This document shows positions 34,195 through 64,000 of a stretch of 64,000 nt of DNA, one piece after another (positions within the stretch are counted from its first letter, which is position 1; the number at the start of each line of letters is the position of its first letter). The position numbers and the translations under genes are program-made. This stretch comes from Candidatus Latescibacterota bacterium (lineage in GTDB: Bacteria > Latescibacterota > UBA2968 > UBA8231): positions 3,200,001 through 3,264,000 of the forward strand of contig OZ242214.1 of NCBI GenBank assembly GCA_965206595.1, given 5' to 3'. A model generated the notes under the pieces. The model ran no database searches. It saw nothing but the letters and a program-made list of their open reading frames with translations, and was not told the DNA's origin.

Positions 34195-36369
34195 TGGCAT
34201 ATCGACGAGAGAGCAGGGTGGGGCCGGGACGACAACGAGTGGGAGAGGTGGAAGACCGTTGACTTGGAGTGTGCCGATGGCCTCTGGACGACCCGTCCAG
34301 GCGTGGGGGCAAATACGGTATCAGGCGGGGATCACCTGGACTTCTATCACTCGGTGGGGCCAAACGAGTCTCAGCAGTTCGGCGGAGACCTTGGCGGTGC
34401 CACCGATCTGTGGGACGGCAGCTCGGGCAGGCAGGATTTCACCCCGGAAACCAATCCCTCAACAGCTGGATACGAGCCCTCGCCAAGGCCGGCCGATAGA
34501 TTCCCGCAGCCCATAGAGAAAAACCAGAACGTTTTCAGTGGCATCTATATTGAAAACATCCGGCGGGAATCCGGAGACCCCCCTGGCGTTATGAAGTTTG
34601 ATGTTCGCTTTGCGCCGCTGGCTCCCAATAACCTGGAAGCCGCCATCGGCGAGGATCGGGTGCAGCTCAGTTGGACCAAGCCATCTGCCAACGGTGCGAC
34701 AGTTGCTTCAAACAAGGTGCGACATCGTCCCAGTGCGGACGCAAATTGGACGGCGGAAACACCGGTGGCAGCGCCTGACAATGACGATGATGTGGTAAGC
34801 CATACTGTCACGGGACTGACTATCGACACTCAGTACCTCTTTGAAGTGGCCGCCGTCAGCGGGAGACAAAATGAGTTGCCGGGCCTTGAGGGCTTATCCG
34901 TTAGCTACACGGCAACGACCCAACGGGCTATTAGACGGACCGAGGTCCCCCCCCTGGTTTTTGCGGAGATACATCAGGGTGCCGGGAGCTGGGAAAGCTA
35001 TGTGGACAGGTTTGCAAAAACCGGCTCGTATGATTGGTCGTTGGAAGGTCTCGATATGTTGCAGTTCCGACTGGATGAAACAGAGGGCGGGTTTCAGAAG
35101 TTGCATTTCAGGAACCCTCCCAACTATGAGTCTCCGGTAGACACACCTAAAGGCGACAATACCGAAGGGGACAATATCTACGAAGTGACGGTGAAGGCCG
35201 AACCGTCGGGTCCGAGCGGGGCAAGCAGTCCTGATCATCGTTATATGATCCCGGTTACCGTTGAGGTAACCACTGAAAATGAAAGGGGCAAAGTGACGGT
35301 GACGCCTGACCGTTACCAAGTGGACGTGGAGCTGACCGCGACCCTGACAGACCCCGACAGCCCTGACCCGAATAAACCCCCCTACCGGGATCAATTGGCA
35401 ATGGAAGCGGGGATCGGTATTCGACCATAATGGCACTCTCACCCGGAGTCCAGATCTTCCAGACCCGATTATGGGTGCCACTGATTCGCGGTACACTCCG
35501 GTTGCAGAAGATATTGGCTATGAACTGATTGCTGAAGTTGGCTATACCGATGGTCATGGCCCAGGGAAAAAGGCACTTTCGCCGCTGCCCGTCCCGCCGA
35601 AGGTGGTGGTTGATGTGCCCTCGGCGCCTGGAAACCTGCAGGCGGCTCCTCGCGACCGTTCGGTGCTCCTGACTTGGGAGTCAGCTTCGGACAACGGTTC
35701 AGCGCTTACCCGGTATGAGTATCAGCAGAGCACGGACGGGGGGACTACTTGGTCTCCGGGCTGGACAACGATTGCCCTTCCCGCGGACACGGATGCGGCC
35801 GATCTCACCGAGCATACGGTCACAGGGCTGACCAACGGCACCGTGTACACTTTTGAGGTGCGGGCGGTCAACGCGATCGGGGAGGGCGCTGCGGCGCAGG
35901 TTACCCTGCCCCCTGAGAACCTGCGGGCGCGATGGGTTTTCGCCGGTTCCCATCTTTTGGCGAGCCACAAAGCGCAGCTGACCTGGGACGATCCGGACGA
36001 CGCCCGCATCACGGGGTGGGACTATCGGCAGAAGGCGGGCGCTGCGGCCTGGGGTTCCTGGCAGCAGATAACCGGTAGCAGTGCGACTACGGTCACGCAT
36101 TCGGTGGAGGCCGTGCAAATCTGGCGGCCGTACCGGTTCCAGGTGCAGGCCCGTTACGGCCCCGGGACCGACGACACCGGGCCGGAATCGGCCGAGGCGG
36201 TGCTGACCCCCTTGCCGGTGTTCACCCAGCCGCCTGCGGTGATCCAGAATAGCGGCGACGGCAAGGCGCAGTTCAAGGTGGGGTTCGACTTCCCGGTCGG
36301 CGACGTGGATCTGCCCGACGGCCTGGTGCCGAATGAATACATCGAGATGGAGGTTACCAAAACCACGGC

Positions 36370-36402
36370 GGGGGGGGGGGGGGGGGGGGGGGGGGGGGGG
36401 GG
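36370..36402 (+). repeat. 33-nt poly-G tract
   Basis: Counted directly; lies in coding sequence and breaks the frame. Confidence 0.95.
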
Positions 36403-36914
36403 TGACGACGGTAAGCGACTGGACGGCCCTATCGCAGCAGGGAATAGATGGGATACTGTCTGGCGTGGCCCTGGTAGCCGAATTCACGGACGGGGACCTG
36501 GCGCCGACCGAGGGTCTGGCTGGCGGGGGTACGGGACCGGACGATCCGACCGTTTCCCGTCAGGTGGTCGCGGTGATCCGGGTGTCGGGTCTGGACCCCG
36601 GGGCGACCTACGAATTCAAGGTGCGCTTTGTCCATCCGGACGGGGTGACGGAGTTGGAGCCGGCCTCGGCTTCGGTGTACGGGCTGCGTTGGCAGCGACC
36701 GACCGCCACCGCGGTGGCGTTGAGCTGGACGGACCCCAACAAGCCGTTTATCAGGACTTGGCAGTACCGTCAGCGGGCCGGCAGCGGCTCGTGGGAGCTC
36801 TGGCAGAACGTGAGCGACCCCGGCGCGACGACGACGACGCACCTGGTCTCGGGTCTCGAGGCGGAGGAGACCTACGAGTTCCAGGTGCAGGCGCTGGTGC
36901 CGGGGGGTCCGTTG

Positions 36915-37338
36915 GCCGAATCGTTCACGGTGTCGGCGGCTCCGAAGCCTTTGGTAGCGCCGGGTAACCTGCGGGCGGACCCCGGTCACGCGTCGATGAC
37001 GTTGCGTTGGGACGACGCGAACAATGCCCGCATCACCGGGTGGCAGTATCAGCAGCGGCAGGCCGGAGAGGATTGGGGAGCGTGGCAGCCGATCCCGGGC
37101 AGCACGGCGTCGACGACCTCGTATACGGTGCCGGACCTGACCAACGGGGTGAGCTACCGTTTCCGGGTGCGGGCCTTGGCCGGATCCCAGGAGGGTCCCC
37201 ACGGGAAGTCGGTGGGAGGTCCGCCCAACGGCTTGCGGGCCCAGGCGTTGAACGGCGCGGTAGAGCTGGTCTGGGCCGACCCGTCCGATTCCCGTATCGC
37301 GGGGTGGCAGTATCGGGTGCGCGAGGGTCAGGACAGCT
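36915..37338 (+). repeat. Shared FN3 block, copy A
   Basis: gccgaatcgttcacggtgtcggcggctccgaagcctttgg...ggtcaggacag; nearly identical at 48066, 57752 and 63280. Confidence 0.9.
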
Positions 37339-61165: not shown

Positions 61166-63279
61166 CCAACCGGTCCTTGGAAGTGTTCATACCGGATTCC
61201 ACGAGCACGGATGACAGGGGGGATGCACTCCCCTCCCTCCACTTCGGGCGAAGCATCAGCTACTACCTGGGCGGCAGGATCGTCCGTGGCGACGCGACGA
61301 ACCTATGGCCAAGGGGTAATGATCGGATCTACGATTCGTTAGTGCCGGATAACGATGAGATGTACCTGAGGTATCATGTTAAACTGGAGGATGGCTGGCG
61401 TTTCTTAGAAAGACATGTAGTAAAAATCCCTGGTCTGGCAGGCACGTACAATGCCGGGGCGGGCGGCTGGAGGCCCGATCCGGAGCAAGGGTCTGTGGGG
61501 TGGTCGGCGCGCCTGCTGGCGGGAAGGGGGCCGGAATACCCCACAAACCAATGGTCGCCGTTGTCCTACGTCTATCACCTGAACCAGGAGAACGACACAG
61601 GCGATCACTGGCCTTATGACGAGACGGAGGGAAGAGTTGATTGGAACGCCGCGCCACGCCTTCAGATGAACCAATGGTATCGCATCGAGCAGCGCATCAA
61701 AATGAACGATCCGGGCCATGAAAACGGCCTGACCGAGGTCTGGATCAACGGCGAGAAGGATCCGGATTTATGCGTTTATGATTTGGCCTATACGACCCAC
61801 GATACTATCGGGATCAACCGAGCCTGGGCGGACATCCACTACGGCGGCAAATACCGTTCTCCTGCCGACAACACCCTGTTCCTCGACAACTTCCACGTCT
61901 CCACCAACCCCACCCCCTGGTCGGGTGAGTTGGTCGGCAGCAGCAAGTGGTCGGGCACGATCCTGGTCACCGGCGACGTCACGATTCCCGACGGAATGGA
62001 CCTGACCATCGCAGCCGATACCGAGATTCGCTTTGCGGCCAACAGCGACGAAACCGGCGGGGGCAGCGACACCGCCCGCTCGGAGCTGATCGTCGAGGGC
62101 GAGCTTGTTGCGACGGCGAGCGGCATCACCTTGGGCTCGAGCAACACCACCGACCCGTCCGACGAGGACTGGTACGGGATCCGGGTGAAGAGCGGGGGCG
62201 AGGCGACTTTGACCGGGGTGACGGTGAAGGACGCGAAGCATTGTGCGGAGGAGGAGTCCGGCGGCACCCTGACCATGTCGGAGGTTACCCTGTCCAACTG
62301 TGGGTCGCCGCCTGAGAATCTGCGTGCGCAATGGGTTTTCGACGGCAGCCATGCCTTCGGACACTCCAAGGCGAGTCTGAGCTGGACCGACCCGAGCGAT
62401 ACCCGGATTACGGGGTGGCAATATCAGAAGAAGGAAGGCAGCGGGACCTTGGGTTCCTGGCAGACGGTGTCCGACGAAGATGCCTCCCTGAATACGGTCA
62501 CGCAGGAGGTGGATGGCCTGAAGAGCTGGAAGACGTACCGGTTCAAGGTGCGGGCCCGTGCCGGACGCGTACCGGGTCCCGAATCCGAAGTGGGGCTGTC
62601 TCCGTTGCCGGTTTTTACGCAGTCGCTGCAGGTGCTGCCCCGGGGCGGTTCGGGCAAGGCGCAATTCGACCTGGTGTTTTCTCCCCCGGTGGACGGTCCG
62701 GACCTTCCGGATGATGCGCAGCAGGTTTCGTCGGGCAACCTCCGGTATCAGCTGGTGACCGTCGACGCGGAGGGCGCGACGAATACCAGCGATTTCGTAG
62801 ACCTGGCCAATTTCTCTCGGCTTCTGCCTTCCGGGGCGAGCCTGGCATCGACTTTTTCGGCAACCGACCTTGCGCCGGTTGAAACGACGGTTGGGGGTGC
62901 GTCGGAGACTCAAGCCGCCGCTTTCCGTCAGGCGGCGACGCTGCGAATCACGGGCCTGGACCCGGGCGTGACCTACCAAATCAAGATGCGTCTGGTCGCT
63001 TCGGACGGGGCGACGATTTCGGAGTCGACTTCGGGTACGGTTCTGGGTCTTCGCTGGCAGCGACCGACCGCCGGGTCGGTGGCGTTGAGCTGGACCGATC
63101 CCAACAAGCCGTTTATCAGGACTTGGCAGTATCGTCAGCGGGCCGGCAGCGGCTCGTGGGAGGGCTGGCAGAACGTGCGCGACCCCGGCGCGACGACGAC
63201 GACGGACACGGTCTCGGGTCTCGAGGCGGAGGAGACCTACCAGTTCCAGGTGCGGGCGCTGGTGCCGGGGGGTCCGTTG

Positions 63280-63890
63280 GCGGAATCGTTCACGGTGTCG
63301 GCGGCTCCGAAGCCTTTGGTGGCCCCGGGCACCCTGCGGGCGGACCCCGGCCACGCGTCGATGACGTTGCGTTGGGACGACGCGAACAATGCCCGCATCA
63401 CCGGCTGGCAGTATCGGCAGCGGCAGGCGGAGAGGATTGGGGAGCGTGGCAGCCGGTCCCGGGCAGCACGGCGTCGACGACCTCGTATACGGTGACGGGC
63501 CTGACCAACGGGGTGAGCTACCGGTTCCGGGTGCGGGCGTTGGCCGGGTCCGAGGAGGGTCCCCACGGGAAGTCGGTGGGCGGTCCGCCCAACGGCTTGC
63601 GGGCCCAGGCGTTGGACGGCTCGGTGGAGCTGGTCTGGGCGGACCCGTCCGATTCCCGTATCGCGGGGTGGCAGTATCGGGTGCGCGAGGGTCAGGGCAG
63701 GTGGAGTGGGTGGCAGCCGGTCCCGGGCAGCACGGCGTCGACGACCTCGTATACGGTGCCGGACCTGACCAACGGGGTGAGCTACCGGTTCCGGGTGCGG
63801 GGGGTGGCCTCGAATGGCGGGGTGGTGCTGGCCTGGCCGATGGTGGAGACGAGTCCGGACGGGTCGCTTGCGGTCCGGCCGCCGGAGATT
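63280..63890 (+). repeat. Shared FN3 block, copy D
   Basis: Nearly identical to copies A, B and C; diverges after the PPEI codons. Confidence 0.88.
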
Positions 63891-64000
63891 CATGTTGGAA
63901 TGATCTGGAAACCTCGGTTCAAACCGACCTGGAAGAAGGCAACCTCATCGGCCTTGGGTGGCCCTACGTTGACTGGACGGCCCGGACTTCAACGACACCG

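What the first reader, a model, noticed from the sequence alone, without database searches (positions are those of the whole stretch)
34195..64000. Tandem array of variable-head, shared-stalk giant secreted proteins (candidate N-terminal polymorphic system)
Seen: four co-oriented giant genes (A 34195, B 44151, C 54001, D 59762). Heads differ: M6-like metalloprotease twice, Vps62-like HEGDW domain, PL14-like lyase. All sit on FN3 stalks sharing a near-identical ~420 bp block (36915, 48066, 57752, 63280). Heads look AT-richer than the stalks. Small partner genes of three paralogous families are interleaved. Known: Rhs/CDI loci diversify by recombination through conserved DNA next to variable C-terminal tips. 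Inference: this is the mirror image, a head-swapping system where recombination in the conserved 3' block joins different enzyme heads to one stalk/anchor.
Basis: partly seen in the sequence, partly recalled or inferred. Interest (0 to 1): 0.85.

Follow-up and report, generated by a model that had tools for sequence, protein, structure and literature searches.

The report
Recombining, decaying family of surface enzymes
An uncultured Latescibacterota bacterium carries a family of large exported enzymes whose different catalytic heads sit on a shared, recombining fibronectin-type stalk; it looks like ordinary shuffling within a surface-protein gene family, and most copies here are broken.

Summary
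The observation largely holds. Four co-oriented genes (A-D) carry different heads on FN3 stalks. They share a ~420-bp block at 94.8-96% identity. The genome has seven copies of the block, and a same-genus genome (G001) has one full and one partial copy.

Important details were missed:
- A is a remnant cut by an IS5-like element. It lacks the protease core and has two frame breaks, one of them a 33-G run.
- C and D each have a 1-nt frameshift.
- D is split by an IS630 element.
- B and C end in pieces of a neighbouring PD40 gene.
- None of A-D keeps the T9SS C-terminal domain. In this family only the paralogue G does.

"Vps62-like" is not supported by HMMs.

The stalk is a recombination mosaic: segment trees conflict, and a four-gamete permutation test gave 0 of 1000. 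Head-stalk pairing is not fixed. G001's PL14 head is the orthologue of D's head but sits on the stalk variant that carries C's M6 head here.

A dedicated head-swapping or polymorphic-toxin-like system is not: I found no promoterless cassettes, no recombinase and no immunity-like partners.

Best reading: a fast-evolving, IS-eroded family of modular T9SS-type surface enzymes, evolving by duplication and ectopic recombination.

The parts
33333..34192 (-). IS5-like insertion sequence (transposase ORF 33349-34200) abutting the 5' end of remnant A
   Evidence: Pfam DUF4096 and DDE_Tnp_1. Inverted ends GAACCTATCTCAAAA / TTTTGAGATAGGTTC. 24 copies of at least 80% length in the genome.
34195..37391 (+). 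Gene A, a remnant. It holds the post-catalytic part of an M6-type head, a mid region and the FN3 stalk. It reads in three frames (34054-35430, 35471-36967, 36333-37391) and ends inside the last FN3 of the block.
   Evidence: tblastn frames. +1 A at 35374 relative to C. 33-G run at 36370-36402. Tail sequence.
36915..37338 (+). Shared block, copy A
   Evidence: the query itself. The other copies are 94.8-96.0% identical to it.
37357..38886 (+). U-family partner (509 aa): signal peptide, no Pfam or NCBIfam match
42397..43303 (+). s-family partner in two frames (42397-42771 and 42746-43303), a frameshifted copy of a ~300-aa gene
   Evidence: Both pieces match one 333-aa ORF of the second locus and one 290-aa ORF of G001.
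43334..44041 (+). s-family partner (235 aa), directly upstream of B
44151..48845 (+). Gene B, the only uninterrupted ORF (1564 aa). Order: signal peptide, HEGDW head of unknown family, short beta-helix-like segment, Calx-beta, FN3 stalk. The last ~30 codons derive from the 3' end of a PD40 gene and carry its TWGQVK tail. No T9SS CTD.
46868..48620 (+). Common stalk module within B. Collinear modules: A 35602-37338, C 56478-58315, D 62307-63885.
   Evidence: Coincident HSP starts. Sliding identities.
48066..48487 (+). Shared block, copy B
   Evidence: 95.97%. 96% identical to G001 C2:48829-49250.
48842..49750 (+). PD40/TolB-like beta-propeller partner (302 aa) ending in the TWGQVK tail
49807..52211 (.). 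Two insertion-sequence transposase genes: IS481-type (49807-51108, minus strand) and DDE_5-type (51201-52211, plus strand)
   Evidence: The DDE_5 type has 12 copies of at least 80% length.
52516..53907 (+). U-family partner (463 aa) ending in SWGELK
   Evidence: Fold model with pLDDT 83.5.
54001..58579 (+). Gene C. Order: signal peptide, M6-type metalloprotease head (HEYGH), FN3, mid region, FN3 stalk. A frameshift (extra C at 56878-56881) splits it into 54001-57153 and 56921-58579. The 3' end is fused to an internal piece of a PD40 gene.
   Evidence: Contigs of runs X1 and X3 cover 56486-57242 and 56533-57242 with 0 differences.
57752..58175 (+). Shared block, copy C
   Evidence: 95.05%.
58712..59716 (+). 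PD40/TolB-like partner (334 aa) ending in the TWGQVK tail
59762..59995 (+). Gene D, first piece: start codon, signal peptide and beginning of the PL14-like head
   Evidence: Collinear with G001's gene R1.
59996..61162 (+). IS630-family element inside D (transposase 60077-61165)
   Evidence: Pfam DDE_3. TA duplicated on both sides and inverted ends GTGTCATGTCG / CGACAGGACAC. The target site is uninterrupted in G001. 26 copies of at least 80% length, 4 of them 100% identical including this one.
61163..64000 (+). Gene D, second piece: PL14-like head, beta-helix-like segment, FN3 stalk. A G is missing near 63430, which shifts the frame. The stop is at window coordinate 64031, just past the window. 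No CTD.
63280..63700 (+). Shared block, copy D
   Evidence: 94.79%.

Best explanation
The locus is part of a paralogous family of large, modular, exported enzymes in an uncultured Candidatus Latescibacterota bacterium. There are seven genes in two loci.

Full-length design. This is seen whole only in paralogue G, which itself has two frameshifts. The order is: Sec signal peptide, an N-terminal catalytic or binding head, a ~1.8-kb stalk of FN3 domains, cadherin-like repeats, and a type IX secretion C-terminal domain.

Likely role (inferred). Such proteins would be exported by the T9SS and displayed on or released from the cell surface. There the heads would attack extracellular polymers (proteins, uronic-acid glycans).

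How the family evolves (shown). It grows by duplication and by ectopic homologous recombination or gene conversion between the stalks. This keeps the stalk, above all its last two FN3 domains (the ~420-bp block), similar among paralogues whose heads are saturated with substitutions. It also occasionally re-pairs heads and stalks.

State in this genome (shown). The array is being eroded by five kinds of IS element, by small homopolymer indels, and by deletions that fused two genes to fragments of a neighbouring gene.

Inferred, not shown. Export route, surface display and substrates are inferred. Whether any copy here, such as B, is still functional is unknown.
For: ORGANISM AND SECRETION
- Related loci come from Candidatus Latescibacterota MAGs.
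- The genome encodes SprA (488 bits, over the cut-off).
- It has 92 matches to the T9SS tail model TIGR04183. One is at the end of G (275573-275815, 32.1 bits). None lies in genes A-F.

ARCHITECTURE
- N- and C-termini are.

HOMOGENISATION
- Synonymous difference (pS) in the block is 0.009-0.125 among the 7 paralogues.
- pS between paralogous heads is 0.69 (C/E) and 0.80 (B/F).

MOSAICISM
- The nearest paralogue changes along the stalk. A-C are 96-99% identical in one stretch, B-E 91-97% in the next, C-E 98-100% later, and A-D 92-94% just before the block.
- ML trees of four segments conflict with 97-100% support.
- AU tests reject the transplanted clades at p 0.002 to 1e-133. The groups were chosen after seeing the trees.
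- Among 303 informative sites, 36.8% of site pairs fail the four-gamete test. Neighbouring sites are more compatible than in any of 1000 permutations.

RE-PAIRING OF HEADS AND STALKS
- G001's gene R1 carries D's head on C's stalk variant.
- C's M6 head has no relative above 54% identity in G001.
- The genomic backbone of the two genomes is 96.0% identical.

DECAY
- IS elements are documented.
- Contigs of two public runs reproduce the frameshifted stretch of C exactly. These runs may be the source sample.

LIFESTYLE
- Youssef et al. 2015 (PMC4454575; I read the abstract and matched passages) predict that Latescibacteria degrade algal cell-wall polysaccharides and glycoproteins. They list M06 among their 'nutritional' peptidases.
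- The HEGDW head occurs in 75 database proteins on several different stalks and anchors: FN3, He_PIG/SprB-type Ig, dockerin, and FlgD_ig/Por_Secre_tail. That pattern fits modular extracellular enzymes.
Against: - No expression or secretion data exist.
- Six of the seven family genes lack the CTD that T9SS export needs. In G001's 72-kb array only the last giant gene has one. So either most members use another route or none, or the full-length design is not the norm.
- The M6 match is below NCBIfam's and Pfam's curated cut-offs.
- The HEGDW head has no assignable family or fold.
- The low GC3 of the HEGDW and M6 heads and of the U and s genes (0.46-0.55) is conserved in G001 (0.41 for one head). 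Simple duplication plus conversion does not explain it.
- The array's orthologues diverge faster (pS 0.17-0.24) than the one backbone gene measured (pS 0.084). This could mean diversifying selection rather than decay.
- Signal peptides were judged by eye only.
Confidence: 0.7

Rival explanations
1. A dedicated N-terminal cassette-switching system. CTD-less genes would serve as an archive of heads. Recombination through the shared stalk would move a head onto the one gene that carries the tail and the T9SS anchor. That would change which enzyme is displayed.
For: - Head-stalk pairing differs between two genomes whose backbone is 96% identical.
- Only the 3'-most giant gene of the second locus (G) and of G001's array carries a CTD.
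- The stalk is kept recombination-competent, with the block at 95% or more in all 7 copies.
- Array content differs greatly between close relatives, and the array was not found in the third genome of the genus.
Against: - Each head has its own start codon and signal peptide, and CTD-less genes in G001 are long open ORFs of 1051-2525 aa. That argues they are genes in their own right.
- The copies are direct repeats, so a crossover deletes what lies between them and cannot be reversed.
- Heads of different families share no 5' homology, so conversion has no second anchor.
- No recombinase, invertase or DGR was seen. Only IS transposases are nearby.
- The copies here are broken.
- The joints in public-run contigs cannot be told apart from paralogues E, F and G, which lie outside the laid stretch.
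Confidence: 0.1
2. A polymorphic toxin/immunity-type competition locus. The heads would be toxins delivered to competitors, and the interleaved small genes would be their immunity proteins.
For: Variable enzymatic domains on a conserved trunk with small genes in between resemble the layout of Rhs/CDI loci.
Against: - The variable part is N-terminal.
- The heads are a nutritional-type protease, a PL14-like lyase and an unknown domain, not known toxin families.
- The partners have signal peptides and a shared C-terminal export-type tail.
- The U model is a LolA/YmcC-like domain plus an HmuY-like domain. The PD40 partner is a TolB-like propeller.
- Partner type does not track head type. U follows an M6 remnant, a PL14 gene and an HEGDW gene. 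PD40 follows an HEGDW gene and an M6 gene.
- In 6 of 8 other Latescibacterota loci examined, U genes have no such giant gene within 10 kb.
Confidence: 0.03
3. The block is conserved by purifying selection on an important protein or DNA element, and no recombination is involved.
For: - The block is as similar between species (96%) as between paralogues.
- pN/pS of about 0.4 shows some constraint.
Against: - Synonymous sites are also nearly identical, whereas paralogous heads are saturated.
- Variable sites in the block form shared haplotype patches across paralogues and across species.
- The four-gamete and tree tests demand recombination.
Confidence: 0.05
4. The repeats, frameshifts or joins are artefacts of assembling a metagenome.
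For: - The genome is a MAG.
- The indels sit in short homopolymers, and one is a 33-G run.
Against: - The seven copies differ by 4-5% and each has unique flanks.
- An independent assembly (G001) holds the same block and related genes.
- Contigs of runs X1 and X3 match 56486-57242, which includes C's frameshift, and 52418-55563 with 0 differences. They start 25 nt inside the IS630 end at 61138.
- These runs may be the source sample, so they test the assembly but not the biology. The D and A frame breaks and the 33-G run were not covered by what I saw.
Confidence: 0.03

Closest known systems
T9SS cargo proteins of the FCB group (N-terminal catalytic domain, Ig/FN3-like spacers, C-terminal sorting domain; examples such as gingipains and Flavobacterium ChiA are recalled, not tested here)
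   Same: - Signal peptide, N-terminal enzyme domain and FN3/cadherin-like spacers.
- In paralogue G, a Por_Secre_tail CTD.
- The genome has SprA and 92 CTD matches.
   Different: - Six of the 7 family genes, including all four in the window, lack the CTD.
- The family is a tandem array with DNA-level homogenised stalks and interleaved partner genes. I know of no description of that for T9SS cargo. My three literature searches listed none, but they were not aimed at this point.
Rhs / CDI (CdiA) polymorphic toxin loci with orphan toxin-immunity modules
   Same: - A conserved DNA stretch lies next to variable functional domains.
- There is evidence that recombination re-pairs modules.
- Small genes are interleaved.
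   Different: - The polarity is reversed.
- There are no orphan promoterless modules and no immunity-like partners.
- The heads are not toxin families, and each gene is complete in itself.
- None of the three defining features tested was met (see Membership tests).
Mosaic cell-surface gene families shaped by ectopic recombination. [quoted passage not shown] For both papers I saw only the search listing and the start of the abstract.
   Same: - Paralogous surface-protein genes with repeats.
- Chimaeric alleles arise by recombination between paralogues.
- Gene content varies between close relatives.
   Different: - Here unrelated enzyme heads (protease, lyase-like, unknown) share one stalk.
- The host is an uncultured Latescibacterota bacterium.
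- There is a sharp intragenic GC3 step.
M6 peptidases (immune inhibitor A, InhA) / TIGR03296 M6-domain proteins
   Same: C and E match TIGR03296 at E 1.6e-24 and 1.2e-22 over ~270 residues, and the HExxH motif is present.
   Different: Scores are below the curated cut-offs (87.3 and 81.2 bits against 110.8; Pfam 18.1 against 22). The domain is embedded in a much larger FN3 protein.

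Membership tests
T9SS type-A cargo | C-terminal sorting domain (Por_Secre_tail, TIGR04183/PF18962) | tested here: not met
   For genes A-D of the window and for E and F: none of the genome's 92 TIGR04183 matches lies in them. A blastp with G's CTD finds only G, one G001 ORF and an unrelated downstream gene. For paralogue G the feature is met (275573-275815, 32.1 bits against a cut-off of 23).
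T9SS type-A cargo | T9SS machinery encoded in the genome | tested here: met
   SprA (TIGR04189) scores 488 bits, over the cut-off. Other components were not searched.
T9SS type-A cargo | N-terminal Sec signal peptide | tested here: inconclusive
   B, C, D, E and G have hydrophobic N-termini with plausible cleavage sites, judged by eye. No predictor was run.
M6 metallopeptidase (InhA-like) | Match to the family model above its curated cut-off | tested here: inconclusive
   C scores 87.3 bits on TIGR03296 (E 1.6e-24) against a cut-off of 110.8, and 18.1 bits on PF05547 against 22. Gene A retains none of the matched region.
M6 metallopeptidase (InhA-like) | HExxH zinc-binding motif | tested here: met
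   HEYGH is present in C, E and presumably G by inspection. It is absent from A, which starts after it.
Polysaccharide lyase family 14 | Match to PF21294 above the gathering score | tested here: met
   D scores 49.2 bits (E 7.1e-13) against a cut-off of 27. G001's two genes score 46.1 and 46.6 bits. Catalytic residues and activity were not tested.
Vps62 (PF06101) | Match to the Pfam model | tested here: not met
   No match to B's head or to a G001 head at E up to 10. There is no match in the six-frame genome either. Only the HEGDW motif is present, and its link to Vps62 is recalled, not tested.
Rhs/CDI-type polymorphic toxin system | Variable toxin domain with a cognate, cytoplasmic or periplasmic immunity gene directly downstream and specific to it | tested here: not met
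   The partners fall into three families that do not track head type. They carry signal peptides and a common C-terminal tail.
Rhs/CDI-type polymorphic toxin system | Orphan modules without their own translation start that share a short homology with the main gene | tested here: not met
   Every head examined that is not cut by an IS element has a start codon and a signal peptide.
Rhs/CDI-type polymorphic toxin system | Heads belong to known toxin families | tested here: not met
   Pfam and NCBIfam give M6, PL14 or nothing. PADLOC and toxin-specific libraries were not searched.
Multigene family under concerted evolution / ectopic recombination | Paralogues more alike in one region than their overall divergence allows, with mosaic and phylogenetically incongruent segments | tested here: met
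   pS comparisons are.

The most novel reading that the evidence does not exclude
The shared FN3 stalk is a maintained recombination cassette. It lets a population of these bacteria move any of a library of enzyme heads (protease, lyase, HEGDW domain) onto the single gene that carries the long tail and the T9SS anchor. This would be an N-terminal, T9SS-adapted counterpart of C-terminal tip switching in Rhs/CDI loci. It would explain three things: most array members lack the anchor, the last one has it, and close relatives carry different head-stalk pairs.
Probability: 0.1. Interest if true: 0.8.

Novelty: new variant of a known kind. Interest (0 to 1): 0.4.

Why it matters
The locus gives a clear, datable natural example of domain-level reassortment. 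Two genomes whose backbone differs by about 4% carry the same stalk variant on unrelated enzyme heads. It shows how an uncultured polymer-degrading phylum may diversify its exported enzymes.

It also flags several open points:
- an unassigned but widespread HEGDW head domain;
- an uncharacterised exported partner family (U);
- a sharp intragenic codon-composition step that is conserved between species.

It does not, on present evidence, reveal a new kind of programmed diversification system. In this genome the array is largely a graveyard of IS-disrupted genes.

Tried and rejected
- Structure of B's HEGDW head. AlphaFold2 with a 20-sequence alignment gave mean pLDDT 51, with the other four models at 36-39. 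That is too poor to search, so no fold search was run.
- Sequence searches of that head against PDB chains, as a single sequence and as a 7-sequence profile. Only chance-level rows appeared: E 0.024 or higher for antibody chains, and one Nep1-like protein row at E 0.85.
- ESM Atlas look-ups. They did not complete.
- Pfam Vps62. No match.
- Foldseek of the U model against the PDB. Nothing at E 0.001 or better. The wider VIA-align search gave only domain-level likenesses: Z about 10 to HmuY-like proteins and Z 8.3 to a YmcC/LolA-like lipoprotein. These suggest a fold but not a function.
- Reads. Only Logan contigs were available. The listed 'joints' (for example 46974 to 56701, or 64000 back to 52684) have short sides of 20-57 nt. 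They are what paralogues E, F and G, or U and the M6 head beyond the window, would produce. I do not count them for or against alternative joins. Runs X4 and X6 gave only short, low-depth pieces.
- Scan of JGI metagenome contigs for near-identical block copies. It returned 9 loci. The five matches longer than ~90 residues are 30-35% identical; four shorter fragments are 49-68%. These are generic FN3 matches.
- Pfam PF18962 search of G001. It missed even the obvious CTD at the end of its array, so I used blastp with G's CTD instead.
- My first reading that the block is more conserved between species than orthologues are. I withdrew it. The array-internal baseline (pS 0.17-0.24) is not genome-typical. 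Backbone DNA is 96.0% identical and one backbone gene has pS 0.084, which equals the block's divergence.
- GC-biased gene conversion as the cause of the stalk's high GC3. I did not test it. The stalk's GC3 (0.79-0.84) lies within the genome's upper quartile, so the unusual parts are the low-GC3 heads.

Full report
ANATOMY

The window is G000:C1:3200001-3264000 of a single-contig 7.05-Mb genome with 63.7% GC. Relatives found with one of the locus's proteins are all titled Candidatus Latescibacterota MAGs, apart from one weak Solibacteraceae hit.

From 33.3 kb to the window's end the + strand carries, in order:
- an IS5-like element (about 33333-34192);
- gene A (34195-37391);
- a 509-aa gene of no known family, 'U' (37357-38886);
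- on the minus strand, a hybrid histidine kinase and a transposase fragment;
- two 's' genes (42397-43303, which is frameshifted, and 43334-44041);
- gene B (44151-48845, 1564 aa);
- a PD40/TolB-like propeller gene (48842-49750);
- two IS transposase genes (49807-52211);
- a second U gene (52516-53907);
- gene C (54001-58579);
- a second PD40 gene (58712-59716);
- gene D (59762 to 64031, just past the window).

The family has three more members. E lies 1.6 kb past the window. F and G lie in a second locus near 0.26 Mb, which is a patchy segmental duplicate of this one.

All four genes have FN3 stalks.

The ~420-bp block exists in 7 copies at 94.8-96% identity to copy A. All are direct repeats.

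The heads differ:
- C and E match the M6-domain model TIGR03296 at E 1.6e-24 and 1.2e-22, below the curated cut-off, and have HEYGH.
- D matches PL14 above Pfam's cut-off.
- B has an NHEGDW motif.

Three partner families are interleaved.

The HEGDW and M6 heads are strikingly AT-richer than their stalks at third codon positions: GC3 0.46 and 0.54 against 0.79 and 0.84. The median for 1547 long ORFs of the genome is 0.73 and the 5th percentile is 0.53.

WHAT WAS MISSED OR WRONG

- A is a remnant. Its homology to C begins at C's codon ~369, after the protease core. It has a +1 A at 35374 and a 33-G run at 36370-36402, each of which changes the frame. It ends inside the block's last FN3.
- C carries an extra C at 56878-56881. 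D lacks a G near 63430.
- D is interrupted by an IS630-family element at 59996-61162, with a TA duplication and inverted ends. The site is intact in the sister genome. This IS has 26 near-full copies in the genome, four of them identical.
- E is split by a DDE_5-type IS. F is cut at its 5' end by an IS110-type element. G has two frameshifts; the one aligned against E is a +1 T at 266929.
- B's last ~30 codons are the 3' end of a PD40 gene. C's 3' end is an internal piece of one.
- 'Vps62-like' fails. PF06101 does not match at E up to 10.
- D's PL14 head has the same GC3 as its stalk.

EXPORT ROUTE

The genome encodes SprA and has 92 matches to the T9SS C-terminal sorting domain. Within the family only G ends in one. 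G's last ORF is 2979 aa: FN3 stalk, many cadherin-like repeats, then the CTD.

I therefore read the full design as signal peptide, head, FN3 stalk, cadherin-like tail and T9SS CTD. The window's four genes are truncated versions of it. This weakens the idea of 'one stalk/anchor', because A-D have no anchor.

IS THE SIMILARITY DUE TO RECOMBINATION?

Yes.
- In the block, synonymous differences among the seven paralogues are 0.009-0.125 per site. Between paralogous heads they are 0.69 and 0.80, which is saturated.
- Along a 1.7-kb collinear stalk alignment the closest paralogue keeps changing: A-C, then B-E, then C-E/D-G, then A-D.
- ML trees for four segments conflict at 97-100% support.
- AU tests reject moving a clade from one segment to another, with p from 0.002 to 1e-133. 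The groups were picked after seeing the trees.
- A test that needs no such choice agrees. Of 303 biallelic informative sites, 36.8% of pairs fail the four-gamete test. The 20 nearest neighbours are less incompatible (0.215) than in any of 1000 site permutations (mean 0.368).

ARE HEAD-STALK PAIRS FIXED?

No.

Of 41 genomes searched, G000 included, only one other has close relatives of the stalk: the same-genus genome G001. The other genome of the genus, G002, has none.

G001's contig C2 carries an array of co-oriented genes:
- two PL14-FN3 genes;
- four HEGDW giants;
- one giant with a weak reprolysin-like hit;
- five PD40 genes, one U gene and s-like genes.

Its PL14 gene R1 is D's orthologue by head (84-100% nt over R1 positions 1-1044) and by neighbours. 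But its stalk is 85-96% identical to C's stalk from R1 position ~1450 to the end of the block. Ahead of the block (up to R1 ~2240) that stalk is only 56-85% identical to D's stalk.

C's M6 head has no relative above 54% identity in G001.

Syntenic backbone DNA of the two genomes is 96.0% identical over 9,111 nt. One backbone gene has pS 0.084. So the re-pairing happened within roughly that divergence.

This corrected an earlier thought of mine. The block's 96% identity between the species is simply the genome-typical level, not special conservation.

WHY I DO NOT CALL IT A SYSTEM

- There are no promoterless cassettes. Each head that is not cut by an IS has a start codon and a signal peptide.
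- All copies are direct repeats, so crossovers delete DNA and cannot be reversed.
- Heads of different families share no 5' homology.
- The only recombination genes nearby are IS transposases.
- A crossover in the 3' block exchanges tails, not heads. The head-stalk exchange seen in R1 maps to the 5' edge of the stalk (R1 positions ~1100-1450).
- The partners are not immunity-like. U has a signal peptide. A confident model (pLDDT 83.5) shows a LolA/YmcC-like domain (Z 8.3) plus an HmuY-like domain (Z about 10). U belongs to a family of 117 unannotated proteins.
- PD40 is TolB-like. Both U and PD40 end in a [ST]WGx[VL]K tail.
- Partner type does not follow head type. In 6 of 8 other Latescibacterota loci examined, U has no such giant neighbour within 10 kb.

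FUNCTION (INFERRED)

Latescibacteria are predicted degraders of algal cell-wall polysaccharides and glycoproteins, with M06 listed among their 'nutritional' peptidases (PMC4454575; I read the abstract and matched passages).

The HEGDW head occurs in 75 database proteins on FN3, Ig-like/SprB, dockerin or CTD-bearing scaffolds. That is the pattern of modular extracellular enzymes.

I therefore read the family as surface-displayed or released polymer-attacking enzymes on long spacers.

READS

The public runs that hold this DNA are kept only as contigs. They reproduce C's frameshifted stretch, and 52418-55563, without a single difference. They may be the source sample. They cannot test alternative joins.

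VERDICT

This is a real and nicely documented mosaic gene family: a new variant of a known kind (modular surface-protein families evolving by ectopic recombination). In this genome it is heavily eroded. The bolder cassette-switching reading is not excluded. The fact that only the last gene of an array keeps the anchor is suggestive. But that reading has no positive evidence.

Noticed in passing
window 36370-36402: A 33-G homopolymer lies inside gene remnant A, in place of about one Gly codon of its paralogues. The genome has 14 further G/C runs of 11 nt or more, including a 31-C run at genome position 6079588.
   Followed up: partly
window 48800-48845, 49720-49750, 53880-53907, 59690-59716; genome-wide: The U and PD40 partners, and B through its borrowed end, finish in a [ST]WGx[VIL]K tail. 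Across the genome, 87 ORFs of 150 aa or more have WGx[VILM]K in their last 30 residues. Only 15 have it elsewhere, and 9.3 would be expected in the tail region if it were uniformly placed. Most read ...SAVESVSWGRIKASLE. It looks like a portable C-terminal tag, as two earlier notes of this scan also concluded.
   Followed up: partly
window 44151-48620 and 54001-58310; G001 array: There is a sharp intragenic codon-composition step: GC3 is 0.46-0.54 in the HEGDW and M6 heads against 0.79-0.84 in their stalks. The U and s genes are also low (0.46-0.55). The step recurs in G001 (0.41 against 0.73), so it is not a recent import. The cause is unknown.
   Followed up: partly
window 43334-44041; L002:3745-4647 and 5264-6160; G001 C2 (rc 32996-34042, 40290-41912, 56205-57188): The small 's' proteins have a signal peptide, a glycine-rich hydrophobic C-terminal half and an ending of ...L[QHR]F. 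In G001 two of the four HEGDW giants are directly preceded by a gene with that ending, and the other two by a small gene with a different, related-looking C-terminal domain. In G000 an s gene precedes B, and one precedes F ahead of the IS110 element. This may be a conserved gene pair.
   Followed up: partly
window 39200-41704 vs genome 251882-253683: The hybrid histidine kinase beside the array is duplicated in pieces next to the second locus, at 92-99.7% identity. The adjacent s genes there are only 75% identical. This is another sign of patchy conversion or segmental duplication.
   Followed up: no
window 59996-61162 and genome-wide: The genome is IS-rich and the elements are recently active. 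It holds 26 near-full copies of the IS630-type element (four at 100%), 24 of the IS5-like element and 12 of the DDE_5 type. In the laid contigs the IS630 bins reach depth 2582 (60009-60675) and 1025 (60676-61342), against 24-142 over the genes.
   Followed up: partly
window 52516-53907 (U family): The U family has 117 database proteins and no Pfam domain. The only source names are 'hypothetical protein [Candidatus Latescibacteria bacterium]'. It folds confidently into two beta-rich domains: a LolA/YmcC-like open barrel (residues ~51-289) and an HmuY-like sandwich (residues ~312-443).
   Followed up: partly
window 17664-20675 (minus strand): The 1003-aa ORF upstream of the array ends in a T9SS C-terminal domain (genome 3217682-3217930, 41.2 bits). 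It is an unrelated T9SS cargo gene in the same neighbourhood.
   Followed up: no
window ~7545 onward vs G001 C11: Synteny with G001, at 96% identity, stops near window 7545. G001's copy of the array lies at the start of another contig. So the array sits in a region that is rearranged between the two genomes.
   Followed up: no
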